A stretch of 64,000 bases of DNA from Octopus sinensis (GCF_006345805.1 NC_043023.1:6448001-6512000), one strand, 5' to 3'; shown: positions 4,861 through 62,468, numbered from the stretch's first letter. The notes: a model not told the origin generated them from the letters alone. Numbers and translations are program-made.

Positions 4861-4911
<51 letters not shown>

Positions 4912-5258: not shown

Positions 5259-5295
<37 letters not shown>

Positions 5296-6924: not shown

Positions 6925-6967
<43 letters not shown>

Positions 6968-9213: not shown

Positions 9214-9278
9214 GTGTGTTTCTTAAATGGCTTTAAAACACCTTCCACGCTGGAATGTTACATATATATATATATATA

Positions 9279-9330
<52 letters not shown>

Positions 9331-14715: not shown

Positions 14716-15030
14716 ATAAAAGACATATATAACAGAACTGCAAGTGTAAAGTATAAGATAGTCTTGAGCGTAAAATCTTCCTAAGAGTCAGTAGTGGTTT
14801 TCCTTGATCACAAGTGGACGGTCATCATTATGTGTGTATGTATATATATATATATAATATATATATATTTCTTTACTACCCACAAGGGGCTAAACATAGA
14901 GGGGACAAATAAGGACAGACAACGGATTAAGTTGATTATATCGACCCCCAGTGCGTAACTGGTACTTAATTTATCGACCCCGAAAGGATGAAAGGCAAAG
15001 TCGACCTCGGCGGAATATATATACATATGC

Positions 15031-15063
<33 letters not shown>

Positions 15064-17049: not shown

Positions 17050-17105
<56 letters not shown>

Positions 17106-17735: not shown

Positions 17736-17795
17736 ATGAAGATTTCCCATTATCCATCTTTATCCTTGTTGCTGTAGCTGGGTCGGTCTATTCAG
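17736..17795 (+). CDS. Ig-superfamily gene, right copy, signal-peptide exon (exon 17688-17795), with a 1-nt deletion relative to the left copy
   Basis: Mirror of 4174-4282. Reads GATTTCCCAT versus GATTTCCCCAT in the left copy, so 60 nt instead of 61 (frameshift or homopolymer sequencing error). Confidence 0.7.
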
Positions 17796-17939
17796 GTAAG
17801 TTTAATCCTTCAATATATATGTATACTAGCAGTAATACCCGTTCATCGGATAATTACTTTTACTCTTTCTCAGGAGTCACATTCAAAGTATTATTATATA
17901 TATAATAGAATTCTCAACGGGGATTTCAGGGGAGAGTTC

Positions 17940-19440
17940 TCTATGATTTGTGGTTCTATGATTTGTTGGCTAGGAGATGTGCCGGGAAGTTAAACACACA
18001 GACACACACACAGATACACACACAGACACACAAGTTGAGTTTTATATATATAGATGTATGTATGTATGTATGGATGTATGTATGGATGTATATATGGATG
18101 GATGGATGACTGGATGGATGGATGTAGGCATGTCATTTTTCAGTTTTACTTCAAGATTTCTTGCCAATAGAGAATGAACCAGTTTCTAACCTTGATCCAA
18201 GGCTCCTTCATTGGAATTTCAACATCAACAACAGGGCATTTTTGTATGTATGTATGTAAAGATGGAAAAGGAATATATGACAATTTATTATTATCACAAC
18301 AATTGTTTCGACACATCTAGCATATTAATTCCTCATGGATGAGCACTTAACAACTGGTTCAGAGGTATCCAGTGGTGCAGATGTATCTCGTCAGTGATAA
18401 TAGACACAACTCATTAAAATAACAGTTCCACAATGTATCTTTTATTGTTTTGGTCACTTGACTGTGGCCATGCTGGGGCACTGCCTTGAAGAATTTAGTT
18501 GAATGATTTGACCCTAGTACTTATTTCTTTAAGCCTGGTACTTATTCCAAAAGTCCCTTTTGCCAACAGCTAAGTTACAAGGGCGACAAATATACAAACA
18601 ATGGTTATCAAAGACACAAGCACATAGGCATACATATATGCAATGAGCATTTTTCAGTTGTTGTCTACTAAATCCAATCACACAAGGCTTTGGTCATCCC
18701 AAGGCCATAGTAGAAGAGACTTGCCTAAGGTGCCACTCAGTGGGACTGAATCCAGGACCAGGTTGTTGGAAGCAAATTTCTTACCACAGAGCCAAACCTG
18801 TGCCCATAATATATATATGTGTGTTGTGTGTGTGTGTGTGAGTGTTTGTGTGTGGGGATGCAATGGCCCAGTGGTTAGGGCAGTGGACTCGCAGTCAGAG
18901 GATTGCGGTTTCGATTCCCAGACCGGGCGTTGTGTGTGTTTATTGAAGGAAAACACCTGAAAGCTCCATGAGGCTCCAGCAGGGGGTGGTGGTGACCCCT
19001 GTTGTACTCTTTCGCCCCCAACTTCCTCTCACTCTCTCTTCCTGTTTCTTGAGTAACGCTGTGATGGACTGGCGTCACGTCCAGCTGGGGGGAACACATA
19101 CACCACAAAAACTGGGCCCATGAGCCTGGCTAGGCTTGAAAAGGGCACATAGATAAATATATATATATATATATATATACACGCATACATATATATCTAC
19201 ATACACACACACACGTGTGTGTGTATGTATGTATGTATGTATGTATGTATATATATTTCATTTAAAACCTTCAGAAATTCAACAAAACCTGTTACTTGAA
19301 GTTTCACATTCCTGTTCGTCAGACTGTTTTTGTTAAAATAGAACCGATATACCAGCTGCTTTTAAATAAAGCATATTACTCTACCCCTGGTATTTGAGTA
19401 CTCTTTTTTTCCACCTTGTTTCACTTTATGTGTTTACTCC

Positions 19441-19487
<47 letters not shown>

Positions 19488-19535
19488 TAGCACTATGACC
19501 CAGCTACAGTCAAAATGACTGAAACAAGTAATAGA

Positions 19536-19569
<34 letters not shown>

Positions 19570-20913
19570 CAGGGGAGAGTTTCAGGGTGTCACTGGCGAT
19601 GTATCATGATGATCAAAAATCCGGCCTGCTAAAATTTGTTAAAGTGATTCAAACTGCAGACTCAATGCAAAATGGTCAATTTAATTCAAAGCGTTAAAAA
19701 TGTTATGAAACATTGTTATGTGTTCACAAGTCCAAACGATTAATACAAAAAAAACCCTCCAGGCTACATCCCGAAAATTCATTTCTTTGCCGAATTTCTA
19801 CAATGTTTACGGCGATTCGTTTTTATATCTTGATTTTTTATTTTTCATGCATTTATGCACGCTTGCACGCATGGTGAACACAGTTCACGTCAAACAGCTG
19901 ACTGAGTAAAGTTCACTATTCAATGCATGGGATAAGGCCTAAACAAACACATTATCGAATTTTGCACTTGCGAGATGAATTTCCGAACAGAAATAGCGCA
20001 GTTCAATTTTCATTCGCCTAAACTTTAAGTGACCCATTTTTGGTGTTCTACAATTTGTTGGCTAGGAGATGTGTCCGGGAAGTTAAACACACAGACACAC
20101 ACACAGATACACACACAGACCACAATTTGAGTTTTATATATATAGATAGACACACAGAGTGGTATGGTATGTATGTATGGATGTATGTATGTATGGATGT
20201 ATATATGATGGATGGATGACTGATGGATGGATGAGGCATGTCATTTTTCAGTTTTACTTCAAGATTTCTTGCCAATAGAGAATGAACCAGTTTCTAACCT
20301 TGATCCAAGGCTCCTTCATTGGAATTTCAACATCAACACAGGGCATTTTTGTATGTATGTATGTAAAGATGGAAAATGGAATATATGACAATTTATTATT
20401 AATCACAACAATTGTTCGACAATCTAGCATATTAATTCCTCATGGATAGAGCACTCAACAACTGGTTCAGAGTATATCCAGTGTGGGCAGATGTATCTCG
20501 TCGGGTGATAAATAGACACAACTCATTAAAATAACAGTTCCACAATGTATCTTTTATTGTTTTGGTCACTTGACTGTGGCCATGCTGGGGCACTGCCTTG
20601 AAGAAATTTAGTTGAATGACTTGACCCTAGTACTTATTTCTTAAGCCTGGTACTTATTCCAAAAGTCCCTTTTGTGCCAAACAGCTAAGTTACAGGCGAC
20701 AAATATACAAACAATTTATCAAGACACAAGCACATAGGCATACATATATGCAATGAGCATTTTTCAGTTGTTGTCTACTAAATCCAATCACAAGGCTTTG
20801 GTCCTCAAGGCCATAGTAGAAGAACTTGCCCAAGGTGCCACTCAGTGGGACTGATCCAGGACCAGGTTGTTGGGAAGCAAATTCCTTACCACAGAGCCAA
20901 ACCTGTGCCCATA

Positions 20914-20944
<31 letters not shown>

Positions 20945-21252
20945 AGTGTTTGTGTGTGTGGGGGTGCAATGGCCCAGTGGTTAGGGCAGTGGACTCGCAG
21001 TCAGAGGATTGCGGTTCGATTCCCAGACCGGGCGTTGTGTGTGTTTATTGAGGAAAACACCTGAAAGCTCCATGAGGCTCCAGCAGGGGTGGTGGTGATC
21101 CCTGTTGTACTCTTTCGCCCCCAACTTCCTCTCACTCTCTCTTCCTGTTTCTTGAGTAATGCTGTGATGGACTGGCGTCACGTCCAGCTGGGGGGAACAC
21201 ATACACCACAAAAACTGGGCCCATGAGCCTGGCTAGGCTTGAAAAGGGCACA

Positions 21253-21283
<31 letters not shown>

Positions 21284-21590
21284 GCATACATATATATCTA
21301 CATACACACACACACACGTGTGTGTGTATGTATGTTTGTTTGTATGTATGTATGTATGCATGTATGTGTGTGTATATATATAAATATATATATTCTATAT
21401 ATACTTTATTTAAACCTTCAGAAATTCAACAAAACCTGTTACTTGGAGTTCACATTCCTGTTCGTCAGACAGTTTTTGTAAAATAGAACCGATATGCCAG
21501 CTGCTTTTAAATAAGCATATTACTCTACCCCTGGTATTTGAGTACTCTTTTTTTCCACTTGTTCACATTTATGTGTTTACTCCGTTATCC
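17940..21590. repeat. Direct tandem duplication inside the right arm (17955-19443 vs ~20045-21585)
   Basis: Both blocks mirror left-arm 2100-3570; they are separated by (TA)n and a SINE/Helitron scrap. Confidence 0.85.
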
Positions 21591-22263
21591 GGTAATATAT
21601 ATGTGGCTGTGTGGTAAGTAGCTTGCTAACCAACCACATGGTTCCGGTTCAGTTCCCACTGTGTGGCACCTTGGGCAAGTGTCTTCTGCTATAGCCCCGG
21701 GCCGACCAATGCCTTGTGAGTGGATTTGGTAGACGGAAACTGAAAGAAGCCTGTCGTATATATGTATATATATATGTATGTGTGTGTCTGTGTTTGTCGC
21801 CCTAGCATTGCTTGACAACCGATGCTGGTGTGTCTACGTCCCCGTCACTTAGCGGTTCGGCAAAAAGAGATCGATAGAATAAGTACTGGGCTTACAAAAG
21901 AATAAGTCCCGGGGTCGATTTGCTCGACTAAAGGCGGCGCTCCAGCATGGCCGCAGTCAAATGACTGAAACAAGTAAAAGAATAAAAGAAAGAATAAAGA
22001 ATATATATATTTATACACACACTCACACAGACACACACACACACACACACATTCCACCACATACACACACAAACACACAATGATCTGTTTTCAGTTTCTG
22101 TCTAATAAATCAACTCAAAAGTCTTTGATCATCTCAGGCCTATAGGAGAAGACATCAGTGCAAGTTGTCTTGCAGTGGGATTGAACCTGACATGACATGT
22201 TCGGGATTCAAACACATAACTACACAACCATAGTGATCCTCTCCTTTCCACTTTCTATTACAG

Positions 22264-22369
22264 GTATCCAGCCGCCTGTGATGGTAATCAACCCACGTGC
22301 CCTGGTACTATTTACAGAGTTAGAGACTGTGGACCTTCCATGCAAGGCCAGTGGAGAACCACAACCTAC
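22264..22369 (+). CDS. Ig-superfamily gene, right copy, coding exon 2 (Ig1 N-terminal half)
   Basis: ttacag|GTATCC...CCTAC|gtaagt; encodes ...LPCKASGEPQPT and splices in frame to 25444. Confidence 0.85.
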
Positions 22370-22870
22370 GTAAGTATTGTTGTTTGAGTAGTAGTACAAG
22401 TAGTAGTGGTGGTGGTGGTGTTAGTGTAGTCATGTGACAATTGTAAACACTAGTGTCAGAGTGCAATTATACACAGAAAGTGGTATCACAATCATAAATA
22501 AGAAAACATGGGAACAAATTGGTAAACCCAAGTTATGTAGTTCAAACAAAATAGCCTACAGCAGGGGTGGGGAAGGTTTTTAGTGCAGTGGGCAAGGTCT
22601 GCGGTCAGAGCACAGGTTCTAACACTTATATCTGTGTTAATCTTACTCTTTACTCTTTTACTAGTTTCAGTCATTTGACTGCGGCCATGCTGGAGCACTG
22701 CCTTTAATCGAGCAAATCGACCCTGGGACTTATTCTTTTGTAAGCCCAGTACTTATTCTATCGGTCTCTTTTGCCGAACCGCTAAGTAACGGGGACATAA
22801 ACACACACACCAGCATCGGTTGTCAAGCAATGCTAGGGGGACAAACACAGACACACAAACACACACACGC

Positions 22871-22905
<35 letters not shown>

Positions 22906-24139
22906 TGATGGGCTTCTTTCAGTTTCCATCTACCAAATCCACTCACAAGGTTTTGGTCGGCCTGAAGATATTAGTAGAAGACACTTGCCCAGGTGCCACG
23001 CAGTGGGACTGAACCCGGAGCCATGTGGTTGGTAAACAAGCTACTTACCACACAGCCACTCCTGCGCCTATATCTTGTATATATCTATATATATATAATC
23101 TTGTATATATAATTTGATATACATTTATAAAGATAAGTTTAACACATTAAATTGACACATCTTCATTAACACGCTACGGAATTCCGCTGTGTTTGTGCCA
23201 GTGCCACTGTACTGACTCCTGTGCAGGTGGCACATAAAAATCATCATTTGAGCGTGGCCATTGCCAGTACTGCCAGACTGGCCCTCATGCCGGTGGCACT
23301 TTGAAAGCACCCACTACACTTTCAGAGTGATTGGCGTTAGGAAAGGCATCCTGCTGTAGAAACTGCCAAATTAGATTGGAGCCTGGTGCAGCCATCTGAT
23401 TCGCCAGTCCTCAGTCAAATCATCCAACCCCTGCTAGCATGGAAAGCGGACGCTAAACGAGGATGATGATGATGAGGTATTCTGTATTTTTCAGCTAAAG
23501 GGTAGTTGAGTCTCGAGGGGGGGGTTCAAACCTAGCAGTATGTGTTTTATTGTGAAAACAAAATGTCCATTCAAACGCCATTTACCAGACGATTTGTAAC
23601 CATTAAAAGTCGTAGAGGAAACGCGACCTATGTGGCAAACAGGTATATAAATATTCTCTTCTAGTCTAGGCACAAGGCCTGAAATTTTATGGGAGGGGGC
23701 CAGTTGATTAGATCGACCCCAGTATGCAACTGGTTCTTAATTTATCGACCCCAAAAGGATGAAAGGCAAAGCCAACCTCAGCAGAATTTGAACTCAAAAC
23801 ATAAAGACAGATGAAATACTCCTAAGCATTTCGCCCGGTGGGCTAACATTTTTGCCAGCTCACCACCTTAGGTATATACTCCTTATTCTTTTACTTGTTT
23901 CAGTCATTTGACTGCGGCCATGCTGGAGCACTGCCTTTAGTTGAGGAAATCGACCCCAGGACTTATTCTTTGTAAACCTAGTACTTATTTTGTCAGTCTA
24001 TTTTGCCGAACTGCTAAGTTATGGGGACATAAACACACCAGCATCAGTTGTCAAGTGATGTTTGGGGGGGGGGCAAATATATATACGACAGGCTTCTTTC
24101 AGTTTCCGTCTACAAAATCCACTCACTATCAGTTGCCTG

Positions 24140-25310: not shown

Positions 25311-25443
25311 TACATGCAGACCCCTGTCCTCCTTTCCACTTCTCTCAACTCACACCCATTATCACTTCATTTGTAAGTACATCCACCCACCCTCCATCCC
25401 CATCCCCTTCGTCTTCATCATTTTCCTTCTCTTCTACAACCAG

Positions 25444-25813
25444 GTACATCTGGAAAAAGGACAAACGGGACTTCAACGTGGCTGGCAGTGATGACCTTAT
25501 CTCCACAGTAGAAAACGAGGGAACACTTGTCTTCAAGCAACCCAAAAAGAAGGATGCCGGCACGTATCAATGTTTTGCAAACAACTCTTATGGGGTGGCC
25601 ATGTCAGGCATCGTTGAGCTACGTCTTGCCTTCCTGCAGCCGTACACCAATCAGGAACCAGAGACCATCACTGTATCACCAGGGTCATGTCTCGTCCTCC
25701 CTTGTAACAAGCCAATCAGTTACCCTGAGGCCAAATTCACATGGCTATTGAAATACAGTGATGGCGATTAAAGGTCCTTGACTTCACTGAGCGAATCCAA
25801 ATGGATCACAAAA
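25444..25813 (+). CDS. Ig-superfamily gene, coding exon 3 (rest of Ig1, most of Ig2); apparent 1-nt frameshift near 25768
   Basis: YIWKKD...GTLVF...DAGTYQCFANNSYGVAMS...LVLPCNKPISYPEAKFTW, typical of neuroglian/L1/hemolin Ig1-Ig2. TAA at 25769-25771, but KVLDFTERIQMDHK continues in the shifted frame to a GTTAGT donor. The exon is 370 nt where 371 is needed. Confidence 0.85.
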
Positions 25814-26594: not shown

Positions 26595-28497
26595 ATAGTA
26601 TAATAGTTGTCGCAGTTACTTAGCCCTAGATCAGCCCTGATGCAAAAGAGGCATGATCGAAGATGTTCCAGCTGTCACTGCCCTATCTTTTATCAAGACA
26701 CAGTGTATCTTGGACTACACTATCTAATGTATAGTATAGTAATTAGTGTTAGCGACCATTTGGACTTTTATTCAGACATAGCAAATCTGGAACGACATTA
26801 TCTGATATGATTGATTCCCTGCTTCTGCTTTCAATCAAAATATTAATGGAAGAAGATAGAATATTTAAATTGAAACGCCCCACTGACTAACAGGTAAGGA
26901 GGTTGTTCATAGCTGCATTGTTGCTTTGGTAGAGTTACTACTATGACTTAGATAGTTCAGTGATTTGTGAGTGCTAAGGACAGCAGATGTGTAAGGGAAA
27001 CCGCCATGATATATATATATATTTCTTTACTACCCACAAGGGGCTAAACATAGAGGGGACAAACAAGGACAGACAAACGGATTAAGTCGATTACATTGAC
27101 CCCAGTGCGAAACTGGTACTTAATTTATCGACCCTGAAAGGATGAAAGGCAAAGTCGACCTCGGCGGAATTTGAAGTCAGAACGTAACGGCAGCCGAAAT
27201 ACCTATTTCTTTACTACCCATAAGGGGCTAAACACAGAGAGGACAAACAAGGACAGACAAACGGATTAAGTCGATTATATCGACCCCAGTGCGAAACTGG
27301 TGCTTAATTTATTGACCCCGAAAGGATGAAAGGCAAAGTCGACCTCGGCGGAATTTGAACTCAGAACGTAATGGCAGCCGAAATACCTATTTCTTTACTA
27401 CCCGTAAGGGGCTAAACATAGAGGGGACAAACAAGGACAGACAAACGGATTAAGTCGATTACATCGACCCCAGTGCGAAACTGGTACTTAATTTATCGAC
27501 CCCGAAAGTATGAAAGACAAAGTCGACCTCGGCGGAATTTGAACCCAAAACGTACCGGCAGAAGAAATACGGCTACGCATTTCACCCAGCGTGCTGACGT
27601 TTCTGCCAGCTTGCCGACCTCTGCAGATGGTTTCTTCTCAACCAAGTTGCTGCCAGTAATATTCTCAGCTGCAACAGACACTTGAAATAATGAAATACAT
27701 TAGTTTCTCAAGTATCCATCAGTAGTTCCATATTCCAGAAACATTAGCAAATATAACAGGGACCTGAACAAGAACTGTACTTATTCTATCGGTCTCTTTT
27801 GCTGAACCGCTAAGTAACGGGGACATAAACACATCAGCATTGGTTGTCAAGCAATGCTAGGGGGACAAACACAGACACACAAACACACACACGCATATAT
27901 ATATATATACATATATATGACGGGCTTCTTTCAGTTTCCGTCTACCAAATTCACTCACAAGGCTTTGGTCGGCCCAGGGCTATAGTAGAAGACACTTGCC
28001 CAAGGTGCCACCCAGTGGGACTGAACCCAGAACCATGTGGTTGGTAAACAAGCTACTCACCACGCAGCCACTCCTGCACCAACATTGATATATATTTCTT
28101 TACTACCCACAAGGAGCTAAACATAGAGGGGACAAACAAGGACAGACAAACGGATTAAGTCGATTACATCGACCCCAGTGCGAAACTGGTACTTAATTTA
28201 TCGACCCCAAAAGGATGAAAGGCAAAGTCGACCTCGGCGGAATTTGAACTCAGAACATAACGGCAGACGAAATACCTATTTCTTTACTACCCACAAGGGG
28301 CTAAACATAGAGGGGACAAACAAGGACAGACAAATGGATCAAGTCGATTACATCGACCCCAGTACATAACTGGTACTTAATTTATCGACCATAATGAAGA
28401 CACCAATATTAAAATATTAATGTAAAATAACAATAATTTCACACCTAGAAATAAACAGAAAATTCTCTCCACACCTATTCTCCTAATTCTTTTCCAG

Positions 28498-31645: not shown

Positions 31646-31745
31646 NNNNNNNNNNNNNNNNNNNNNNNNNNNNNNNNNNNNNNNNNNNNNNNNNNNNNNN
31701 NNNNNNNNNNNNNNNNNNNNNNNNNNNNNNNNNNNNNNNNNNNNN
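31646..31745. other. Assembly gap (100 N)
   Basis: Run of exactly 100 N, typical of a gap of unknown size; linkage of the two sides is not shown by the sequence. Confidence 0.99.
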
Positions 31746-32089
31746 AATTATTATTATTATTATTATTATTATTATGATATTATTAATCATATCTTATCAT
31801 ATTCTATCATTTATTACGTATACTTGTATGTATGTATGTATGTATAACAACAAACTAGTAATAATAAAAAGAGAAAAAATTTAAATAAAAAAAATTTTTT
31901 AATTTTTAAATTAAAAAAAAATTTTTTAATTAAAAAATGTATATAGTTATTTACTTCCAGTTGTTTATTTATCTGTGTATTTTATTTTATTGTTTTTGTT
32001 TTGTTTATATTGTAACCAGTTTATGGGGATCCTCTTCTGTCATATGTTGTGGTGTGTGCTACTGTTCCATTCCAGTTTCCTATTCAGGC

Positions 32090-34330
32090 TAGGTTTATCT
32101 TATAATGTGTGTAGCTTCCGTAATATGATGATTGTTGCGTCTGTTCTATGATGTGGACAAGATTTTAACTTATGTTGTTGATTGAGCCTCGTGTTCCTGC
32201 TCGGGTGTGTTGTACAGAATCGATGAGCTTTTACCTTCTTGAGTTCTCTCCAATGTACATTTACTCGCTCTCCTATGCTTCTTGCCGTTTCCCTACGGTA
32301 TGTCGTTGTCTTGTTACTGCATCGTCCCTCTATACATCTTAGACTATAGACTACATTTCTGGCTTTACAGTTTGTTTGTGGGCTAAATCTACACACAGTA
32401 CAGTACCTATCCGTACAGGGGGTTCTACTAAAATGTAGGTTTCTACGATTATGGATTTGATAGGGTTGCCAGGCTTTCAACAACTTAATCTTAGCTTAAG
32501 TTTGTCTAGGATTCCTCTAAAGCGGTACGCCAGTTCACCTCTAGGAGTGGTGTCGACGAACATGACACTCTGGTATTTGTGGCTATCATACCAAGAGTTG
32601 GCCTTCCCTATTTTCTTCTTTGTCCTTTCCATAGTGTTCCATGACTTGCTTCTATTGGGTGGGCAAATCCCATTCCTATCATTACATAAGATATTATCAA
32701 ATTTCTTCATGGCTCCTTTGTATACTCTGATCCTTTCTTTATGGCTGTAACCTGAGAACTGCATGCGGTGAATGAAATGTTGTATGTGTCTCTTTAACTC
32801 TGTAGGCTCGCACATGCGGGACACATTTCGCATTATTCTGAGGAGGTCTGCCATCAAAATATTGAATTTGGCATTGTCCGCGATAGCTGAGTTCCGGTGG
32901 ATCAAGTATTTGGAGGCCATAGGTTTGGCATAGTACGAACGAAGGATTTGGGTTTTATTATTCTCAGTTTCTAGCCAGAGTTCTGTGTCTAGTACTGGTA
33001 GTCTATGGTTGGGGTGTTTAGTAGGGTAGTCTATTGTGACCTTAATACTCTGGTGGACGGAGTTAGCTATTTGCTGGATGCTCTCCATAGTATTAGTTTC
33101 TATTTCTATTTCAAAAGTACTCTCTTGTGGGGGGTGCCTTTACCACTATGTTGATATCATCAACATAGCGAGAGTACATGTTCACGAGTATGGAGTTCTG
33201 TGTTAGGGTTACTTAAGCCTTCTGTCCCACCATACCATGAAAAGGTTGGCCACATCACCGGCCGATTACTAATGCCGATGGCTGCCCCTCGTCCTGGGCA
33301 TATATTTTATTGTTAACTTAAACGTGTGGCATTTTAGGGTAACTCTTATGCTAGCTTCTAGTGCAAGTGCGATCATTTTCTTTACCTGATGGACATTTGC
33401 GGGGTCCGTATGGCTCTGGTCCATCGCTCCATCTCTCTATAGGGTCTTCCTGCCATAGAAGTAATTGTAGGCGGTCTACCTCTTAAACATCTACTGGGGC
33501 AGAAACTACTAAGATCATGTTTATCTAGGTATTCGTTCATTATTCAGCTAAGTAGGAGGCCCAGTTCCTCTGTGTTGACATGCGGAACTCCACCTTGCTC
33601 TCGTTGATCATCTCCACGCACTTCTCCACCGCAAAAACCAAGTCGATCGAGGGTATAGGGATACCACATCCATGCTTACCCACCATACATCTTGTCAGGT
33701 CGCGTCGCAAGTGTTGTTACAGTCGTTGATCCTGCTGAGGAGATCTTCCGTGCTGTCACAAACATCAGGTGACATCCGGATTATAGGGCGTATGATCATT
33801 GAGAGGAAGTAGGAGATTCTGTAGTTGCAAGCGATATTCGCTCCACAGACTGGTCTTGTTGGTGGTCCTGCTACAGGGTCAGTGGTTACTTTATGGTCCT
33901 TGCGAAGTCCATACAGTGCCGGGATATCATTGTTCCAGGCTTGGAAATTGTTAGCTGTGCGTTTCTGGGGTCCCAGAACAATTGTCCACATCATCATATG
34001 GGCGTTGAGGACCTTTTCTCTCTCCTCTTGCGCCTGTAATGTGGTTACTTTCGTATTGGCGATATGAGGTTGTATTGCCTGGATGTAGTTCGGTAAGATG
34101 TCTATTGACATCTTGCCGGACTTATCTGTGGGAAGGCATACCACCTCTCCGTTCCTCGTGCGCTGAATGAGCTCACTGATGCGGTCACAGGAGTGTGACG
34201 AAAGAACTCTGGCCGATATAAGATTAAGTATAATGTAAAAAATAAATATCACCAAAGTAACACCAAATATATAGTGCGTGTGTTTTTATTGGCTAAACTG
34301 GCAAAATGACCATTCCGAATACAACTATAT
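32090..34330 (-). mobile_element. Degraded Penelope-like retroelement (RT + GIY-YIG endonuclease) with terminal repeat
   Basis: PTDKSGKMS, PTRPVCGA, YSRYVDD (~33160-33178), LPVLD..YAKP, C..C...CKARNVVYSLRC...ETARSIGERV; several frameshifts. 34200-34330 recurs at 58235-58412. Confidence 0.88.
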
Positions 34331-34335
34331 ATATA

Positions 34336-34369
<34 letters not shown>

Positions 34370-34493
34370 CTGAGTTTTATCATGGCTACCGAATAATTGT
34401 CACATTACATTTACAGATAAATTCCTCTATTTACATAATATCGAGGTCTCTTTCTTTTTTTTTGTTGTTTACCATTTTTATCAATATATATTT

Positions 34494-34563
<70 letters not shown>

Positions 34564-34578
34564 TTATTTTATAGAAGG

Positions 34579-34629
34579 AGCTTCTACAGGACTAGAACTG
34601 TTTCATTCAAAAGAAATCATCAGGAAGCT
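34579..34629 (-). ncRNA. Type I hammerhead ribozyme motif
   Basis: Reverse complement AGCTTC-CTGATGA-tTTC(tttt)GAAt-GAAA-CAG(8 nt)CTG-TA-GAAGCT; first stem II pair mismatched. Confidence 0.6.
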
Positions 34630-35090
34630 AGGTGACAAGAGTAGTTTTGGCATTTATACATTTAGGCAGGTTTAAAGGGGTGGTGGTGGGGACTTTTTGG
34701 GGGTAGGCATGGCGCAAACTATCATTCTTAGGGGAGTGGTCAAAGGAATCGGTGGTAAAGTAGATAAAAGAATAAATAAAAGAATAAAAGAATAATTAGA
34801 AAAATAGAGTTTTAGGTAAATAAGGAGACTCTCACTTATACATATACATATATATACATATACATACACACACACACACACACACATACACATATATATA
34901 CACACATGTATATATATACATATATACACATACATATACATACACACATGCATACACACACACGCGCGCATCTATATATACACATAATACATACATGCAT
35001 AAATGTATACATATGTTTATACATATGCATACACATACACACACACACACGCGCCTCTTTATATACATAAATACATACATGCATACAAAC

Positions 35091-35133: not shown

Positions 35134-35553
35134 TATATATATATATATAATATTATGTGAAATAGAAAGATGAATAATCTTGTAGTAGATTAATCAAAAG
35201 TTTAACCGATACTTAGTAGCAAAAATCACAGCAGTAAACAGCACGGTTGTTCACCAATAATATTTTATATATATATATATATATACACAAATATTAAAGG
35301 AAATAGAGAAATACAATTGACATATTAAATATTTATTAGCATTATAATATAATTATACGAGCAAAACGCCTCCCGTCCAATGGACGGTGCTGAGTTGTCA
35401 AACATTTAAACCAAATTTTCTCAAAACAACTTGTCCGACCGTCCCATAGGCCTCCCCTTTGAGAAACACTGATGTATCCTTTAATACTTATATGCATGCT
35501 TGAATCTATGCATGTATGTATGAGTGTATATTATCTTGTGGGCATAAGTAAAA

Positions 35554-35885
35554 TTAAGCACTCTCAGTACATATATTGGGAATATTTGTAGAGGGAAATT
35601 TATCTAAAAATTCCTCGAAGACTTTTATTACTAGAAATAGAGCACCAATCATAAATAAGAGAAAAAGCATCGAGTTGAATAGCTTCATGCGGGCATACAT
35701 CCTTCGGCGATGAATTTCATCCCTTCTCGTGCCTTCTTCCTTTTCTGGATACACTGTGAGCAAATCCCGATAGCAACCAAATAGCATACGACATTCATGT
35801 TTGTTCTTGTAGCGGGCAATGGACATGAGGATAGCACTGAATACTGACACTGATGTCATCACCAACGAATAACTGAGTAAATAGT
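35554..35885 (-). CDS. nAChR-like subunit, terminal exon copy B (tandem duplicate)
   Basis: Same acceptor, phase and length as copy A (Y-YLLSYSLVMTSVSVFSAILMSIAR...ESA*); AATAAA at 35332-35337 on the - strand. Confidence 0.8.
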
Positions 35886-37710
35886 CTGTAAAACAAAGGC
35901 AAAAGTAACATATGTATATATATTTATATAGGTTATGAGAGGTAATGATATGAATATGGCCGAAAGGTGTCAGGTAATCTCAAAATTGGGGAAGGGATTA
36001 AGTCGATGTAATCGACCCCAGTGCGTAACTGGTACTTATTTAATCGACCCGAAAAGATGAAAGGCAAAGTCGGCCTCGGCGGAATTTGAACTCAGAACGT
36101 TGCGGCAGACGAAATACCTATTTCTTTACTACCCACAAGGCGCTAAACACAGAGGAGACCAACAAGGACAGACACCCAAATTAAGTCGATTATATCGACC
36201 CCACTGCGTAACTGGTATTTATGTAGGGCGGCGAGCTGGCAGAATCGTTAGCGCGCCGGGCGAAATGCGCAGCAGTATTTCGTCTGTCGTTACGTTCTGA
36301 GTTCAAATTCCGCCGAGGTCGACTTTGCCTTTCATCCTTTCGGGGTCGATAAATTAAGTACCAGTTACGCACTGGGGTCGATATAATTGACTTAATCCGC
36401 TTGTCTGTCCTTGTTTGTCCCTTCTGTGTTTAGCCCCTTGTGGGTAGTAAAGAAATAGGTATTTATATAATCGACCCTGAAAGGATGAAAGGCAAAGTCG
36501 ATCTCGGCGGAATTTGAACTCAGAACGTAGCGGCAGACGAATTACCGCTAATCATTTCGCCCAGCGTGCTATCGTTTTTGCTGACTCGCCGCCTTCCAAA
36601 GGTGTCAGGTAATGCTGGGTAAGTGCTATGGATAGATCATAGTTAAGCTCCAGGATTGGTGTTTATGCGAATAAGGAGTCCAGCGTAGGTCATATATCAG
36701 CATACTCTCTTTTACTCTCTCTTTTACTTGTTTCAGTCATTTGACTGCGGCCATGCTGGAGCACCGCCTTTAGTCGAGCAAATCGACCCCGGGACTTATT
36801 CTTTGTAAGCCCAGTACTTATTCTATCGGTCTCTTTTGCCGAACCGCTAAGTGACGGGGACGTATACACACCAGCATCGGTTGTCAAACGATGCTAGGGG
36901 GACAAACACAGACACACAAACACACACATACACATATATATATATATATACATATATACGACGGGCTTCTTTCAGTTTCCGTCTACCAAATCCACTCACA
37001 AGGCATTGGTCGGCCCGGGGCTATAGCAGAAGACACTTGCCCAAGGTGCCACGCAGCGGGACTGAACCCGGAACCATGTGGTTGGTTAGCAAGCTACTTA
37101 CCACACAGCCACTCCTGCATGTGTATATAGAAAATTTTATTCAGAATGAGATGAAAAAACCAAGGCTGTGAAGGTTTTAGAGCATTTATAAATAGAAGGC
37201 CTTACAGCTGTTTCTGGGATATTTTATATATCCCTTCATCGGAGACGGTGTGAGAATATGGTTAAGCAATAGTTAATTTAGATAAGATATGAAATAGAAA
37301 GTGAAGTGGAAGAATGAAAATAGATTTGAGATATGCAGGGATATTGCATTTGTAGATCCATTATTTAGGCAGAATGGTATACATATAAGATTCCACTACC
37401 TTGTTAGTAAAATGCAATAGTATTTAAAATTGGTCATTCCAAGTATAGAGTTTGTATACAGTGCTATTGAATCAAGGGTTTTATTTAAAGTGACCTAAAA
37501 GTAGGGAATGTATTTGTAAGGTCAAATCGAAAACAGGAAGAGAGGAATAAAGAAAAGAAAGAAAAAGAAAAATGAAAAACAAGAGAGATAATAAGGGAGA
37601 GTGTACCAGTTAGTGGTCAGTCAAGACAATTTGAAAGTAGGAATGGGGAGATGAGGGTGATAGAGAGAGAGAACAGTATCAGAGTGTAAAAATATAAAAA
37701 GAATGGGGGC

Positions 37711-37763
<53 letters not shown>

Positions 37764-38202
37764 AATAATGTAAAAGGTAAAGGAGTGTCAGTTATGTAGT
37801 GATAGAGTCTAAGTGACGGGCAAAGAGAGGGGGAGTAATATGGAATGAAGAATTTCGGAATATAGATTAGGTGGTTGGACAGGTCAGTACTTAGTAGTAG
37901 AAGAAAGTATATATATGAAGATGTATACATAAGTATATGTTAGACATGTATATATATATATATTTATACGGAAGTTTATACATATCAATATCTACGTCTA
38001 CAACTCGTTTTCATGTTTGGATTAACTATATATGTAGGTATGTACATATATGTATGTATATATGCATATATTTATATATTATTTATATTATTACATATAT
38101 ATATATATATATATACTTTATTTAAAGCAGCAGAAAATTCCACAAAACCTGTTACTCTGAGTTTCGCGTTGCCGTTCGTCGGACAGTTTTTGCTTTTACT
38201 CC

Positions 38203-38244
<42 letters not shown>

Positions 38245-38269
38245 CGTATGCATAATATATATATTATAT

Positions 38270-38325
<56 letters not shown>

Positions 38326-38334
38326 CGTATGCAT

Positions 38335-38388
<54 letters not shown>

Positions 38389-39029
38389 ATATGGGAGTAC
38401 ACACACACACACACGATAAGTAAGGAAGTATATACTTAATGGTATACCATACCAGCATTATATGAAAGCACAAGGATAATATAGTAAAAGAGAAAGATTA
38501 TAATAGATAAAAATTAATGCGAAAAAGGGGGTTATAATAAAAATAAAGTGTGGGGGTCCTTTTGAGTGAATTTGGATACAAATAAAAAGGGAACTGGTAA
38601 AAATTTCATATAAATCATGAAAATTATGATATATTAATAATAAATATCGTAAAGTAATTATAATGATAATTAAAAATAACTGGAAAATGGTTAGAAATAG
38701 TACAGTGTAAAGGAGTGTGAAGGAGTATAAGGTGTGGAAATGCAGTATAACAGGATACAGTATTATAGCAGGTATATATATATGACCACATACACACATA
38801 TTAAATATTTATTAACATTATAATATAATTATACGAGCAAAACGCCCCCCGTCCAATGGACGGTGCTGAGTTGTCAAACATTTAAACCAAATTTTCTCAA
38901 AACAACTTGTCCGACCGTCCCATAGGCCTCCCCTTTGAGAAACACTGATGTATCCTTTAATACTTATATGCATGCTTGAATCTATGCATGTATGTATGAG
39001 TGTATATTATCTTGTGGGCATAAGTAAAA

Positions 39030-39361
39030 TTAAGCACTCTCAGTACATATATTGGGAATATTTGGAGAGGGAAATTTATCTAAAAATTCCTCGAAGACTT
39101 TTATTACTAGAAATAGAGCACCAATCATAAATAAGAGAAAAAGCATCGAGTTGAATAGCTTCATGCGGGCATACATCCTTCGGCGATGAATTTCATCCCT
39201 TCTCGTGCCTTCTTCCTTTTCTGGATACACTGTGAGCAAATCCCGATAGCAACCAAATAGCATACGACATTCATGTTTGTTCTTGTAGCGGGCAATGGCC
39301 ATGAGGATAGCACTGAATACTGACACTGATGTCATCACCAACGAATAAACGAGTACATGGT
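39030..39361 (-). CDS. nAChR-like subunit, terminal exon copy A (TM3, short intracellular loop, TM4, stop)
   Basis: ttttacag acceptor 39362-39364; in frame with exon 5 (Y-HVLVYSLVMTSVSVFSAILMAIAR...FNSMLFLLFMIGALFLVI...ESA*); AATAAA at 38808-38813 on the - strand. Confidence 0.85.
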
Positions 39362-40039
39362 CTGTAAAACAAAGGCAAAAGTAACATATGTATATATATT
39401 TATATAGGTTATGAGAGGTAATGATATGAATAAGACCGAAACTGGTACTTATTTAATCGACCCCGAAAAGATGAAAGGCAAAGTCGGCCTCGGCGGAATT
39501 TGAACTCAGAACGTTGCGGCAGACGAAATACCTATTTCTTTACTACCCACAAGGCGCTAAACACAGAGGAGACCAACAAGGACAGACACACAAATTAAGT
39601 CGATTATATCGACCCCACTGCGTAACTGGTATTATCAATATCTACTTCTACAACTCGTACTCATATGTATATGTACACATGCACATCCTTATATACGCGT
39701 ATCTGTATGTATTATCGCCCCTGTACACGCAGGTATATATACCTTGCATACATTCACACATACCTTCACACATACACACACATACATACATACGTACGTA
39801 CATACATACATACATACACGCATACACGCACACATACATTTACATGCACATATGCACGCATGCATATACACACGAATATAATTAGATGACTGATATTCGA
39901 GTATGAGTGAGGAATTAGATAAGGATTAAGAGTTAAAATGTAGATTTATAAGGTTATTGGGATTACCAAAGGGGTATTGTGGAAATATACTGTGTGGTCG
40001 TTTAGGCATTTGGATTTGTGGTAGAATTTGAATGTGTAA

Positions 40040-44168: not shown

Positions 44169-44695
44169 AGAATATCGGCACAGTCTTGAGATCCATGTTC
44201 TTTGGAAAATTCTGCGAGAACGCCATGAAGTAGGTGACGAACGCCAGGAAGTTGGTGATACTGAGCGAGATCTGTTCTCCGCTCTCCGGAGGCGAGAAAA
44301 AAGAGAGCGATGCGATGAAAACGAGAAGGCTGCACGGTATTAAACTGCTGAATACATGGTAGATTGGCTTCCGTTTAGCAGATACAAGGAACATGATGCT
44401 TCTGTTGGTTCCCGTTCTGTTACATTTGTGCTCCGAGATCACGATGTTGAACCAACTGCGCCGCGAATCCTCGTAGAGTACTTTCAACTTGCTTTCTGAT
44501 GAGGCGTAAACGAGATTCATGTTCTGTGCAGAGATGCTGCTTTTGATGATGATCGGACAAGTTTGTTCGTCGAAAGGGAAGTGTAACATGTTGAGTGTGC
44601 ACAGCGTCGTGAAACTTCGATAGATGGTCGCAGTGATGGTACCGCTGTTAGTGATGTCCACTATATCGAAGTCGATTTCGTGCGGCTCAACAGCA
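44169..44695 (-). CDS. nAChR-like subunit, exon 5 (Cys-loop, TM1, TM2)
   Basis: 527 nt, phase 2 to 1. Cys-loop CTLNMLHFPFDEQTC (C-x13-C), KRKPIYHVFSSLIPC (pre-TM1), PPESGEQISLSITNFLAF (TM2), ends VPIF|gtaagt. The AAG acceptor at 44696-44698 is weaker but gives the expected N-S-A junction. Confidence 0.92.
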
Positions 44696-45345: not shown

Positions 45346-45495
45346 ATGAGGATGGGGAGTGGGGTGGTGGACAGGAAAAAAAAAGAGAGAAAATAAGAAG
45401 AAAGCATAAACATTAGATAGAAATGACATTTGGAGTCAGGGAGATAAAAGAAAGAGATAAAAGAAAAGACACAAGATATGGCAAAACCCCCACAT

Positions 45496-46729
45496 AGGCG
45501 CAGGAGTGGCTGTGTGGTAAGTAGCTTGCTTACCAACCACATGGTTCCGGGTTCAGTCCCACTGCGTGGCATCTTGGGCAAGTGTCTTCTACTATAGCCT
45601 CGGGCCGACCAAAGCCTTGTGAGTGGATTTGGTAGACGGAAACTGAAAGAAGCCCGTCGTATATATATATATATATAGGCGCAGGAGTGGCTGGGTGGTA
45701 AGTAGCTTGCTAACCAACCACATGGTTCCGGGTTCAGTCCCACTGTGTGGCATCTTGGGCAAGTGTCTTCTACTATAGCCTCGGGCCGACCAAAGCCTTG
45801 TGAGTGGATTTGGTAGACGGAAACTGAAAGAAGCCCGTCGTATATATATATATATATAGGCGCAGGAGTGGCTGGGTGGTAAGTAGCTTGCTAACCAACC
45901 ACATGGTTCCGGGTTCAGTCCCACTGCGTGGCATCTTGGGCAAGTGTCTTCTACTATAGCCTCGGGCCGACCAAAGCCTTGTGAGTGGATTTGGTAGACG
46001 GAAACTGAAAGAAGCCCGTCGTATATATATATATATAGGCGCAGGAGTGGCTGGGTGGTAAGTAGCTTGCTAACCAACCACATGGTTCCGGGTTCAGTCC
46101 CACTGTGTGGCATCTTGGGCAAGTGTCTTGTACTATAGCCCCGGCCGACCAATGCCTTGTGAGTGGATTTGGTAGACGGAAACTGAAAGAAGCCCGTCGT
46201 ATATATATAGGCGCAGGAGTGGCTTGGTGGTAAGTAGCTTGCTAACCAACCACATGGTTCCGGGTTCAGTCCCACTGCGTGGCATCTTGGGCAAGTGTCT
46301 TGTACTATAGCCCCGGGCCGACCAATGCCTTGTGAGTGGATTTGGTAGACGGAAACTGAAAGAAGCCCGTCGTATATATATATATATAGGCGCAGGAGTG
46401 GCTGGGTGGTAAGTAGCTTGCTAACCAACCACATGGTTCCGGGTTCAGTCCCACTGCGTGGCATCTTGGGCAAGTGTCTTGTACTATAGCCCCGGGCCGA
46501 CCAATGCCTTGTGAGTGGATTTGGTAGACGGAAACTGAAAGAAGCCCGTCGTATATATATATATATAGGCGCAGGAGTGGCTGGGTGGTAAGTAGCTTGC
46601 TAACCAACCACATGGTTCCGGGTTCAGTCCCACTGCGTGGCACCTTGGGCAAGTATCTTCTGCTATAGCCCCGGGCCGACCAATGCCTTGTGAGTGGATT
46701 TGGTAGACGGAAACTGAAAGAAGCCCGTC

Positions 46730-46798
<69 letters not shown>

Positions 46799-47130
46799 GC
46801 GCAGCAGTGGCTGTGTGGTACGTAGCTTGCTAACCAACCACATGGTTCTGGGTACAGTCCCACTGCGTGGCACCTTGGGCAAGTATCTTCTACTATAGCT
46901 CCGGGCCGACCAATGCCTTGTGAGTGTATTTGGTAGACAGAAACTGAAAGAAGCCCATCATATATATATATAGGCGTAGGAGTGGTTGTGTGGTAAGTAG
47001 CTTGCTTACCAACCACATGGTTCCGGGTTCAGTCCCACTGCGTGGCATCTTGGGCAAGTGTCTTCTGCTGTAGCCCCGGGCCGACCAATGCCTTGTGAGT
47101 GGATTTGGTAGATGGAAACTGAAAGAAGCC
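45496..47130 (+). repeat. Tandem array of 9 SINE-A 5' halves (~180-bp units separated by (TA)n)
   Basis: Units start at 45496, 45677, 45858, 46037, 46209, 46388, 46567, 46797, 46972. Confidence 0.92.
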
Positions 47131-47846
47131 CATCGTATATATATATGTATATATATATATATGTGTGTTGTTTGTGTGTTTGTGTGTCTGTGTTTGTTCC
47201 CCCAACATCACTTGACAACCGATGCTGGTGTGTTTATGTCCCCGTAACTTAGCGGTTTGGCAAAAGAGACCGATAGAATAAATACTAGGCTTATATATAT
47301 ATATATATATCTTGGGCAAGTGTCTTCTGCTATAGCCCCGGGCCGACCAATGCCTTGTGAATGGATTTGGTAGACAGAAACTGAAAGAAGCCTGTCGTAT
47401 ATATGTATATATGTATATATATGTATGTGTTTGTGTGTCTGTGTTTGTCCCTCTAGCATTGCTTGACGACCGATGCTGGTGTGTTTACGTCCCCGTCACT
47501 TAGCGGTTTGGCAAAAGAGACCGATAGAATGAGTACTGGGCTTACAAAGAATAAGTCCCGGGGTCGATTTGCTCGACTAAAGGCGGTGCTCCAGCATGGC
47601 CGCAGTCAAATGACTGAAACAAGTAAAAGGGCAAAAGAGTAAAAGAGTAAAAAAAGTGTAAGACCCCCAAAACTATAAACGAACTCATTAGAGAACCCAG
47701 TATTTTGGCTGTTATTTCTAGCAGGCCGAGCGACCATGTAGAGGCTTTTCATAGTTGCCAGTAAATTTGAAAATGGGGTAAGAAAGAGTGGTGGATGAGC
47801 AGTGGGATGGGGGTATATATATGGGATGTAGTCATGTGATCCATAC

Positions 47847-49458: not shown

Positions 49459-49562
49459 ACCACCAGGCATATCTGACCCAAATATTCCATCTGTTTTATG
49501 TCGAAACTAACCCGATCTGGCCTCTCATACTCGATCTACAATGCCAGGTGAAATGCTTTGCT

Positions 49563-51380
49563 GTATTTCGTCTGCCGCTACGTTCTGAGTTCAAATTCCA
49601 CCCAGGTCGACTTTGCCTTTCAACCTTTCGGTGTCGATAAATTAAGAACCAGTTATGCACTGGGGTCGAAATAATCGACTTAATCCCTTTGTCTGTCCTT
49701 GTTTGTCCCCTCTATGTTTAGCCCCTTGTGGGTAGTAAAGAAATAGGTATTTCGTCTGCCGCTACGTTCTGAGTTCATATTCCACCCAGGTCGACTTTGC
49801 CTTTCAACCTTTCGGTGTCGATAAATTAAGAACCAGTTATGCACTGGGGTCGAAATAATCGACTTAATCCCTTTGTCTGTCCTTGTTTGTCCCCTCTATG
49901 TTTAGCCCCTTGTGGGTAGTAAAGAAATAGGTATTTCGTCTGCCGCTACGTTCTGAGTTCAAATTCCACCCAGGTCGACTTTGCCTTTCAACCTTTCGGT
50001 GTCGATAAATTAAGCACCAGTTATGCACTGGGGTCGAAATAATCGACTTAATCCTTTGTCTGTCCTTGTTGTCCCCTCTATGTTTAGCCCCTTGGGGTAG
50101 TAAAGAAATAGGTATTTCGTCTGCCGCTACGTTCTGAGTTCATATTCCACCCAGGTCGACTTTGCCTTTCAACCTTTCGGTGTCGATAAATTAAGCACCA
50201 GTTATGCACTGGGGTCGAAATAATCGACTTAATCCCTTTGTCTGTCCTTGTTTGTCCCCTCTATGTTTAGCCCCTTGTGGGTAGTAAAGAAATAGGTATT
50301 TCGTCTGCCGCTACGTTCTGAGTTCAAATTCCACCCAGGTCGACTTTGCCTTTCAACCTTTCGGTGTCGATAAATTAAGCACCAGTTATGCACTGGGGTC
50401 GAAATAATCGACTTAATCCCTTTGTCTGTCCTTGTTTGTCCCCTCTATGTTTAGCCCCTTGTGGGTAGTAAAGAAATAGGTATTTCGTCTGCCGCTACGT
50501 TCTGAGTTCATATTCCACCCAGGTCGACTTTGCCTTTCAACCTTTCGGTGTCGATAAATTAAGCACCAGTTATGCACTGGGGTCGAAATAATCGACTTAA
50601 TCCCTTTGTCTGTCCTTGTTTGTCCCCTCTATGTTTAGCCCCTTGTGGGTAGTAAAGAAATAGGTATTTCGTCTGCCGCTACGTTCTGAGTTCAAATTCC
50701 ACCCAGGTCGACTTTGCCTTTCAACCTTTCGGTGTCGATAAATTAAGCACCAGTTATGCACTGGGGTCGAAATAATCGACTTAATCCCTTTGTCTGTCCT
50801 TGTTGTCCCCTCTATGTTTAGCCCCTTGTGGGTAGTAAAGAAATAGGTATTTCGTCTGCCGCTACGTTCTGAGTTCATATTCCACCCAGGTCGACTTTGC
50901 CTTTCAACCTTTCGGGGTCGATAAATTAAGCACCAGTTATGCACTGTGGTCGAAATAATCGACTTAATCCCTTTGTCTGTCCTTGTTTGTCCCCTCTATG
51001 TTTAGCCCCTTGTGGGTAGTAAAGAAATAGGTATTTCGTCTGCCGCTACGTTCTGAGTTCATATTCCACCCAGGTCGACTTTGCCTTTCAACCTTTCGGG
51101 GTCGATAAATTAAGCACCAGTTATGCACTGGGGTCGAAATAATCGACTTAATCCCTTTGTCTGTCCTTGTTTGTCCCCTCTATGTTTAGCCCCTTGTGGG
51201 TAGTAAAGAAATAGGTATTTAGTCTGCCGCTACGTTCTGCGTTCAAATTCTGGCGATGTCGACTTCGCCTTTTATCCTTTCGGGGTCGATAAATTATGTA
51301 CCAGTTACGTGCTGGGGTCGATCTAATCGACTGGCCCTCTTCCCCAAAATCTCGGGCCTTGTGCCTAGAGTGGAAAAGAA
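49563..51380 (+). repeat. 184-bp tandem array of SINE-C body (9 full units plus a divergent terminal unit)
   Basis: Units start at 49563, 49747, 49931, 50112, 50296, 50480, 50664, 50847, 51031, 51215. Confidence 0.95.
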
Positions 51381-57908: not shown

Positions 57909-57953
57909 CAGAGTCAAAATGCCGCTGCATTCCATGGTCTGCTCCTGTTCCTG
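57909..57953 (-). CDS. nAChR-like subunit, exon 3
   Basis: 45-nt phase 0-0 exon (tttcag|...|gtgagt) encoding QEQEQTMECSGILTL; the size and position match the conserved 45-nt nAChR exon. Confidence 0.85.
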
Positions 57954-62328: not shown

Positions 62329-62468
62329 CAATTCTATGCTGTCCATCATTTGTATTTCAATATGAATATCGATTGTAGTGTTCAAAGAAGAAGGCCTAAT
62401 CAATGGACTGGATCCACTCTTAACGTATGTCAGCAAAGCCTTTATCCTCTGGAAATGTGTGAGGGGCC
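62329..62468 (-). CDS. Divergent nAChR-like / chemotactile-receptor-like Cys-loop subunit, exon 2 (signal-peptide exon not found, likely beyond 64000)
   Basis: 140-nt exon, CAG acceptor 62469-62471, GTAAGT donor; GPLTHFQRIKALLTYVKSGSSPLIRPSSLNTTIDIHIEIQMMDSIEL contains the conserved IRP motif. Confidence 0.85.

What the first reader, a model, noticed from the sequence alone, without database searches (positions are those of the whole stretch)
35321..39631. Tandemly duplicated terminal TM3-TM4 exon of the receptor, differing only by non-synonymous changes
Seen: a ~0.85-kb block (acceptor, 332-nt coding exon, 3' UTR through AATAAA) occurs twice, at 38797-39631 and 35321-36220. Both copies are open and in frame with exon 5. 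I count 6 nucleotide differences in the coding part and all change amino acids (H/Y, V/L, V/S by two changes, A/S, P/T), with no synonymous change. Three of the five residues cluster at the extracellular start of TM3, next to the M2-M3 gating loop. Inference: alternative last exons could give two channel isoforms with different gating or lipophilic-ligand sites, a way of diversifying a cephalopod sensory receptor without duplicating the whole gene. The numbers are too small to prove selection.
Basis: partly seen in the sequence, partly recalled or inferred. Interest (0 to 1): 0.75.

Follow-up and report, generated by a model that had tools for sequence, protein, structure and literature searches.

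The report
Three alternative endings, octopus ion channel
An octopus gene for an acetylcholine-receptor-like ion channel carries not two but three copies of its last exon; the middle copy is the one seen in transcript-like data from this species, and the gene likely swaps these endings to make channels with different outer membrane helices, but the small differences between the two copies first noticed show no sign of selection.

Summary
The duplicate is real as described: copies A (39361-39030) and B (35885-35554) are open, in frame with exon 5, and differ by 6 nucleotides and 5 residues, none silent. That pattern is within chance (p=0.21), and one of the five changes (Ala/Ser323) also varies in B-type sequence. 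New: a third open copy, C (90% identical), exists. It is assembled 90 kb away only because an 81-kb redundant haplotig was scaffolded between two overlapping contig ends; merged, it lies 5.9 kb beyond B. Exon 5 is single-copy. RefSeq and two transcript-like runs use B; no separate A or C contig was seen. A related species shows three TM4 variants in one DNA run and one probable RNA run, which hints that several endings are used. C differs mainly in outer TM4 and the tail (24/117 vs 8/215 nt). The gene is a six-exon, octopus-specific Cys-loop subunit outside the intronless chemotactile-receptor clade; a sensory role is untested. Verdict: a likely array of alternative last exons, a new variant of a known kind.

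The parts
39030..39361 (-). Last coding exon, copy A (TM3, short loop, TM4, tail, stop); proximal copy, no evidence of use
38797..39029 (-). 3' UTR of copy A; AATAAA at 38813-38808, homology to B ends 11 nt after it
39362..39633 (-). Intron end of copy A with repeat remnant and acceptor; lacks 63 nt that B has
35554..35885 (-). Last coding exon, copy B; used by RefSeq XP_036369744.1 and by contigs of runs X2, X3
35321..35553 (-). 3' UTR of copy B; AATAAA at 35337-35332, followed by a T-rich tract beyond the shared block
35886..36219 (-). Intron end of copy B with acceptor; B-only 63 nt at 36028-35966
36220..37983 (.). 1.76 kb present between anchor and block in B only; the parts tested are dispersed repeats
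37984..38008 (-). 25-nt anchor, B-side copy (true upstream part of the duplicated unit)
39634..39658 (-). 25-nt anchor, A-side copy
44169..44695 (-). Exon 5 (Cys-loop, loop C, TM1, TM2, M2-M3 loop); single copy in the genome
47847..47956 (-). Exon 4
57909..57953 (-). Exon 3
62329..62468 (-). Exon 2 (exon 1 lies outside the window, G000:C27:6518731-6518647)
31747..34685 (.). Contig end that overlaps C27:6395266-6398279, the contig end upstream of copy C (C27:6393479-6393148); merging puts C's acceptor 5925 bp beyond B's
31646..31745 (.). 100-N scaffold gap; window 1-31645 belongs to an 81-kb contig that duplicates C27 about 5.94-6.02 Mb

Best explanation
One six-exon Cys-loop channel gene ends in three tandem copies (A, B, C) of its TM3-TM4 exon, which likely work as alternative last exons, with B the main one in the data seen. 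Shown: three open, in-phase copies with intact acceptors; one exon 5; B in RefSeq and in two transcript-like contigs. Inferred: the order E5-A-B-C within about 15 kb once a redundant haplotig is removed; exon 5 is joined to one copy per transcript by coupled acceptor and poly(A) choice; the array is older than the split from organism B, and gene conversion keeps A and B (and the first 215 nt of C) alike while outer TM4 and the tail diverge. Predicted: isoforms share ligand domain and pore (TM2) and differ in the lipid-facing M4 end and extracellular tail, so they would differ in surface delivery, lipid or modulator sensitivity, or gating coupling, not in ion selectivity. B may win over the nearer A because only one copy keeps its native sequence downstream of AATAAA (untested).
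For: Copies, frames, acceptors. Exon 5 single; exons 1, 2, 4 one hit each. Dovetail overlap with long-read-type indel noise (109 gaps, 37 substitutions, 2859 matches); intervening contig duplicates C27:5.94-6.02 Mb. B used. C's homology to A/B is limited to the 25-nt acceptor tract, the exon and the start of the UTR, with length and stop position kept. Divergence C vs A 8/215 then 24/117 nt, Fisher p=2e-6. A/B flanks unrelated or diverged while the block is 98.7% alike. Organism B: three contigs over TM4 in DNA run X4 (58.2, 53.4, 43.7x) and in probable RNA run X9 (8.9, 4.7, 6.7x); two of three per run are listed, the third follows from table 3 sums; branch points fit sites where C differs (35668, 35650, 35659); P401 and T401 both occur in X4. 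X9 has no contig across the acceptor and its 990-nt contig runs on for 779 letters. C-terminal swaps from duplicated exons use alternative poly(A) (PMC8373072, passages).
Against: No separate A- or C-type contig in either run of this species laid (X2, X3): each gave one unbroken contig, so C is absent or rare there. None of 24 listed runs holds more than 0.84 of A's words; 0.75 and 0.85 are expected from B alone and from B with Ala323. The letters beyond the acceptor were not shown, so the join to exon 5 is inferred; run kind and tissue are not on record. The third organism-B contigs were not listed: their ends were fitted to bin means and their likeness to C is inferred; depth is no copy number; pooled animals could give three alleles. 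dN/dS of C vs A/B is 1.5-1.6, not different from neutral (p about 0.2), and an exon with 32 random changes stays open 27% of the time. C has a Mariner-like insert (label recalled) 29 nt after its stop. A/B divergence (11/837, 1.3%) lies within the haplotig range here (0.83% overall, 0.2-2.0% per block). In human muscle nAChR the M4 C-terminus affects surface expression but hardly gating (PMC5832824, passages).
Confidence: 0.55

Rival explanations
1. Only B works. A and C are leftovers of a duplication-prone locus, kept open by youth, conversion or luck.
For: B alone in RefSeq, X2 and X3. No significant dN/dS signal. The same gene has a frameshifted duplicate of exon 1, so dead exon copies occur here. 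Transposon in C's UTR.
Against: C keeps exact length, stop and acceptor while intron homology ends 25 nt upstream; sharp two-zone divergence; three variants in probable RNA run X9.
Confidence: 0.25
2. A and B are two haplotypes of one exon assembled in tandem; the real array is B plus C.
For: 1.3% divergence matches haplotig divergence; this scaffold holds a haplotig next door; X2 is a mosaic of A and B letters; no listed run holds all of A's words.
Against: A and B lie in one contig without a gap; neither upstream nor downstream flanks align as alleles; the shared anchor region has 3 mismatches in 31 nt and then no clear homology; organism B shows three variants at similar depth (weak).
Confidence: 0.1
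3. C and the organism-B variants are ends of separate whole paralogous genes whose upstream exons are collapsed or missing in the assembly.
For: C is 4.8 kb from a gap; contig ends here are noisy; contigs cannot phase exon 5 with exon 6.
Against: The 4.8 kb upstream of C is accounted for: 3 kb is the overlap with B's downstream flank and tblastn finds no exons 1-5 in the rest; exon 5 has one DNA hit; X9's 990-nt contig is unbranched upstream.
Confidence: 0.1

Closest known systems
Tandem exon duplication-derived C-terminal substitutions (PMC8373072, passages read)
   Same: Duplicated 3' coding exons give homologous C-termini through alternative poly(A) use; human cases with three or more C-termini exist.
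   Different: Those are mostly ancient and well diverged; here A/B are 98% alike, apparently converted, lineage-restricted, and the swap covers two of four membrane helices of a channel subunit.
Insect Cys-loop duplicated exons: nAChR alpha4 exon 4, alpha6 exons 3 and 8, GluCl exon 3 (PMC2064938 passages; PMC1919356 listing only)
   Same: Cys-loop subunit isoforms from tandem duplicated exons, up to three alternatives.
   Different: Internal, mutually exclusive exons (GluCl exon 3 near loop D by the passage; alpha6 exon 8 at TM2 by recall); here the terminal TM3-TM4 exon with its own UTR and poly(A) signal.
Cephalopod chemotactile receptors CRT1, CRB1 (PDB 8eis, 9e6b, 8eiz; PMC11526382, PMC13174522, PMC9068888 passages)
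   Same: nAChR-derived, about 400 aa, short M3-M4 loop, altered ligand loops, fast evolving (exon 5 is 80-84% identical to the O. bimaculoides protein P0004).
   Different: CRs are intronless, clustered on another chromosome (C16 here) and diversify by whole-gene duplication; this gene has six exons, lies on C27 and is outside their clade.
Dscam duplicated exon arrays (PMC3236188, listing only)
   Same: Tandem alternative exons; the paper holds the terms gene conversion and concerted evolution.
   Different: Dozens of internal Ig exons, not a three-copy last exon.

Membership tests
Cys-loop (nAChR-type) subunit | Ligand domain with Cys-X13-Cys loop | tested here: met
   PF02931 above cut-off; C158 and C172 invariant or nearly so
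Cys-loop (nAChR-type) subunit | Four membrane helices, nAChR fold | tested here: met
   PF02932; model pLDDT 86.6, helices 236-259, 266-286, 300-327, 353-396; Foldseek top hits nAChR, E about 1e-27
nAChR alpha (acetylcholine-binding) subunit | Vicinal Cys in loop C, loop A Tyr, loop B Trp (criteria recalled) | tested here: not met
   One Cys in loop C, no Tyr in loop A, no Trp in loop B
Chemotactile receptors (CR) | Intronless coding sequence | tested here: not met
   Six exons over 35 kb; criterion from PMC11526382 and PMC13174522 passages
Chemotactile receptors (CR) | Nested in the CR clade | tested here: not met
   19 of 19 C16 intronless proteins form a clade (SH-aLRT 100) without P0002 (quick tree); L030 is CRT1. 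A sister position is not rejected (p-AU 0.099; long branch)
Chemotactile receptors (CR) | In the tandem CR cluster | tested here: not met
   Cluster on C16, gene on C27
Chemotactile receptors (CR) | Sucker sensory expression; gating by hydrophobic ligands | not testable with these tools
   Tissue of runs not on record
Molluscan CR-like clade (PMC13174522) | Placement in that paper's clade | not tested
   Its sequences and supplements were not fetched
Alternative last exons from tandem duplication | Homologous, open, in-phase copies with own acceptor behind one shared upstream exon | tested here: met
Alternative last exons from tandem duplication | Own poly(A) signal per copy | tested here: inconclusive
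   AATAAA in A and B; for C not established, UTR interrupted by an insert; no 3' ends seen
Alternative last exons from tandem duplication | Two or more copies spliced into mRNA | tested here: inconclusive
   B only in 2 of 2 runs of this species laid; three variants in 1 of 1 probable RNA run of organism B, one of them inferred

The most novel reading that the evidence does not exclude
An octopus-specific, acetylcholine-insensitive Cys-loop receptor diversifies its lipid-facing half by switching among three last exons; conversion keeps TM3 and the loop uniform while outer M4 and the tail are driven apart, a within-gene counterpart to the whole-gene expansion of chemotactile receptors.
Probability: 0.25. 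Interest if true: 0.72.

Novelty: new variant of a known kind. Interest (0 to 1): 0.5.

Why it matters
If several endings are used, one gene supplies natural variants with the same ligand domain and pore but different TM3-TM4 halves: a ready test of what M4 and its tail do, a point on which channels disagree (small gating effect in muscle nAChR, large in GLIC and GABA rho1; PMC5832824 passages). It would add a terminal-exon route to Cys-loop diversity in cephalopods. Regardless, it corrects the assembly: a haplotig hides the third exon, and the one RefSeq protein found shows one ending. Searches of the held library found no description of this gene or of a triplicated last exon in a Cys-loop gene; the three primary CR papers were not held.

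Tried and rejected
Positive selection between A and B: 6 N, 0 S, p=0.21; C vs A/B dN/dS 1.5-1.6, p about 0.2: not shown. Orthologs with annotated alternative ends: three protein searches gave only P0002, a Mytilus protein and an O. bimaculoides exon-5-only model; the representative search gave nothing else above 32% identity. Second whole gene near C: tblastn over 20 fetched 10-kb stretches plus the window found no further exons 2-5. Direct view of junctions from exon 5 to A and to B on one reference was not obtained; reads were laid on copy B only, 4 of 24 listed runs, so A's own flanks were never tested with reads. No RNA holder is on record: no evidence either way. Lack of A or C contigs in X2 and X3 shows no absence. 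Neuroglian-tail search to test the scaffold found it on C4 and C5 only; inconclusive alone. The careful tree did not finish; quick trees used 68 rows (20 loci, 45 of 149 further representatives chosen by length 360-520 and rank, 3 others) and 26 rows. Papers PMC7605239, PMC10262778 and PMC10228259 were not held; no supplements were read, and CR gene lists in them could bear on membership. Earlier scan findings near this place: none.

Full report
1. Observation. The block occurs at 39633-38797 (A) and 36219-35321 (B) on the minus strand. Both 332-nt coding exons follow an identical 30-nt acceptor and continue exon 5 in phase. They differ at six coding positions, giving H/Y303, V/L304, V/S306, A/S323 and P/T401, with no silent change; there are also five non-coding substitutions and indels of 1 and 63 nt. 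It is not more than chance: about 77% of sites are non-synonymous, so 6:0 has p=0.21. Only the clustering in the first 13 nt stands out (p 0.001-0.02, post hoc), and since it sits at the splice site it may reflect one compound event as easily as protein selection.

2. The gene. Exon 5 matches RefSeq XP_036369744.1 (P0002, named Octopus sinensis by the source). Its six exons map at C27:6518731 (outside the window), 62468, 57953, 47956, 44695 and, for the last exon, copy B at 100% against 95% for A. Pfam, an AlphaFold model (pLDDT 86.6) and Foldseek give a nAChR-type subunit with TM3 at 300-327 and TM4 at 353-396. It lacks the vicinal cysteines and the loop A and B aromatics of acetylcholine-binding subunits (criteria recalled). 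Its only close relative found is an O. bimaculoides exon-5 fragment (80-84%); all others are at most 32% identical. The intronless cluster on C16 includes CRT1; 19 of 19 members sampled form a clade without P0002. A sister position is not rejected (p-AU 0.099). It is therefore not filed as a chemotactile receptor, and nothing here shows that it is sensory.

3. A third copy. The genome holds three matches to the exon and one to exon 5. Copy C (C27:6393479-6393148, 90%) is open, of the same length, with stop and acceptor in place. It is scaffolded 90 kb from B across two gaps. But the contig end below B (window 31747-34685) and the contig end above C (C27:6395266-6398279) are the same 2.9 kb, differing by 109 mostly 1-2-nt gaps and 37 substitutions, as unpolished long-read ends do. 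The 81-kb contig between them repeats C27 at about 5.94-6.02 Mb: three Ig exons recur at a constant offset of 457-458 kb, and both ends tested align at 94-99%. Removing it puts C's acceptor 5925 bp beyond B's. The inferred order is E1-E5, A, B, C.

4. Real or artefact. A/B divergence (11 of 837, 1.3%) is within the haplotig range (218 of 26,124 columns, 0.83%; eight blocks of at least 700 columns, 0.2-2.0%), so divergence cannot decide. The flanks can: A and B lie in one gap-free contig, and neither upstream nor downstream flanks align as alleles. A 25-nt anchor occurs twice in the genome, directly before A and 1.76 kb before B; around it homology is poorer (28 of 31) than inside the block. 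I read this as an older duplication whose core was later homogenised (inference). C shows two zones as well: 8 differences from A in the first 215 nt, 24 in the last 117 (p=2e-6).

5. Use. Four of 24 listed runs were laid, as contigs, on copy B. X2 and X3 (organism A, kind not on record, one study) each give one contig over 35444-35885 that leaves exactly at the acceptor with 84 and 47 further letters, the pattern of a splice; the letters were not shown. X3 is pure B; X2 is B with Ala323, the state of A, C and organism B, so Ser323 is probably a variant within B and not an isoform mark (a merged A/B contig is the alternative). Their word shares (0.84, 0.75) fit B with Ala and B alone (0.85, 0.75). 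No A or C contig appeared; C would have split the contig, whereas A's isolated differences could be merged away. In organism B, DNA run X4 has three contigs over TM4 (58.2, 53.4 and 43.7x) and probable RNA run X9 has three (8.9, 4.7 and 6.7x). Two per run are listed; the third follows from table 3 (155.3 = 58.2+53.4+43.7; 20.3 = 8.9+4.7+6.7), and fitted ends reproduce the bin means (four unlisted contigs were fitted, one an unexplained 25-nt piece). The branch points fall at 35668, 35650 and 35659, where C differs from B. The listed differences between the two main X4 variants change residues 384, 389, 392, 398 and 401, and P401 and T401 both occur. This hints at three copies, all transcribed, in a sister species. 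It is weak: depth is no copy number, X9's kind is a guess, and pooled animals could mimic it.

6. Mechanism. Shown: three intact copies behind one exon 5; B in use. Inferred: one copy per transcript through coupled acceptor and poly(A) choice, as for known duplicated C-terminal exons (PMC8373072, passages). A and B have the same acceptor, so skipping the nearer A needs a reason; candidates are the changes in the first 13 nt, the missing 63 nt, and the end of homology 11 nt after AATAAA, which leaves the two copies with different downstream elements (untested). Predicted: isoforms share ligand domain and pore; A and B differ by about four fixed residues, C by 24-26, mostly in outer TM4 and the tail. 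In human muscle nAChR that region governs surface expression more than gating, while in GLIC and GABA rho1 it is needed for activity (PMC5832824, passages), so trafficking or lipid sensitivity is as likely an output as gating. Against function of A and C: no use seen in this species, dN/dS 1.5-1.6 that is not significant, a 27% chance of staying open, an insert in C's UTR, and a dead duplicate of exon 1 in the same gene.

7. Known systems and novelty. Duplicated alternative exons are known in insect Cys-loop genes, as internal exons (PMC2064938, passages), and duplicated last exons are known in other genes. CRs diversify as intronless whole genes (PMC11526382, PMC13174522, PMC9068888, passages). 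Searches found no report of this locus or of a last-exon array in a Cys-loop gene; the primary CR papers were not held and no supplements were read.

8. Verdict. Observation confirmed and extended from two copies to three; interpretation partly supported. Best explanation 0.55; only-B 0.25; A/B haplotype artefact 0.10; hidden whole paralogs 0.10. New variant of a known kind; interest 0.5.

Noticed in passing
L015:270-350 (G000:C27:6512270-6512350), 6.4 kb downstream of the true exon 1: Duplicate of the signal-peptide exon 1 with its flanks; a 4-nt deletion after the ATG puts it out of frame with exon 2, and its 3' half is much changed.
   Followed up: partly
window 25373-25768 (+), further exons near 28455 and 30480; G000:C27 5.82-6.47 Mb: Cluster of Ig-domain genes on C27: nine hits to one exon at 59-100% identity, six after removing three haplotig duplicates. 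The best outside hit (31%) lies on C5, 40 kb from a neuroglian-type FIGEY tail; no such tail on C27. Possibly a neuroglian-derived expansion.
   Followed up: partly
window 1-31645; G000:C27:6398380-6479645: 81-kb contig is a redundant haplotig of C27 about 5.94-6.02 Mb, scaffolded between two overlapping contigs; findings in this part of the window are duplicates.
   Followed up: yes
window 1-7181 vs 14847-23682: Large inverted duplication, 91-95% identical, inside the haplotig and between two oppositely oriented Ig-exon copies.
   Followed up: no
L028:820-2163 (G000:C25): Intronless 447-aa Cys-loop ORF outside the CR cluster and outside the CR clade, on a long branch.
   Followed up: no
window 49519-51332, 45494-47150, 27015-27570, 8085-9297: Head-to-tail arrays of 184-, about 180- and 83-bp units, the first three related to dispersed repeats; two lie in introns of this gene.
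   Followed up: no
L010 about 4530-5120: About 590-bp element with terminal inverted repeats (Mariner-like, label recalled) inserted 29 nt after copy C's stop codon.
   Followed up: no
P0002 residues 258-292: Pre-M2 motif PPESGEQIS is close to the PPESGEKVS of the CRs; a Glu there suggests a cation channel (rule recalled).
   Followed up: no
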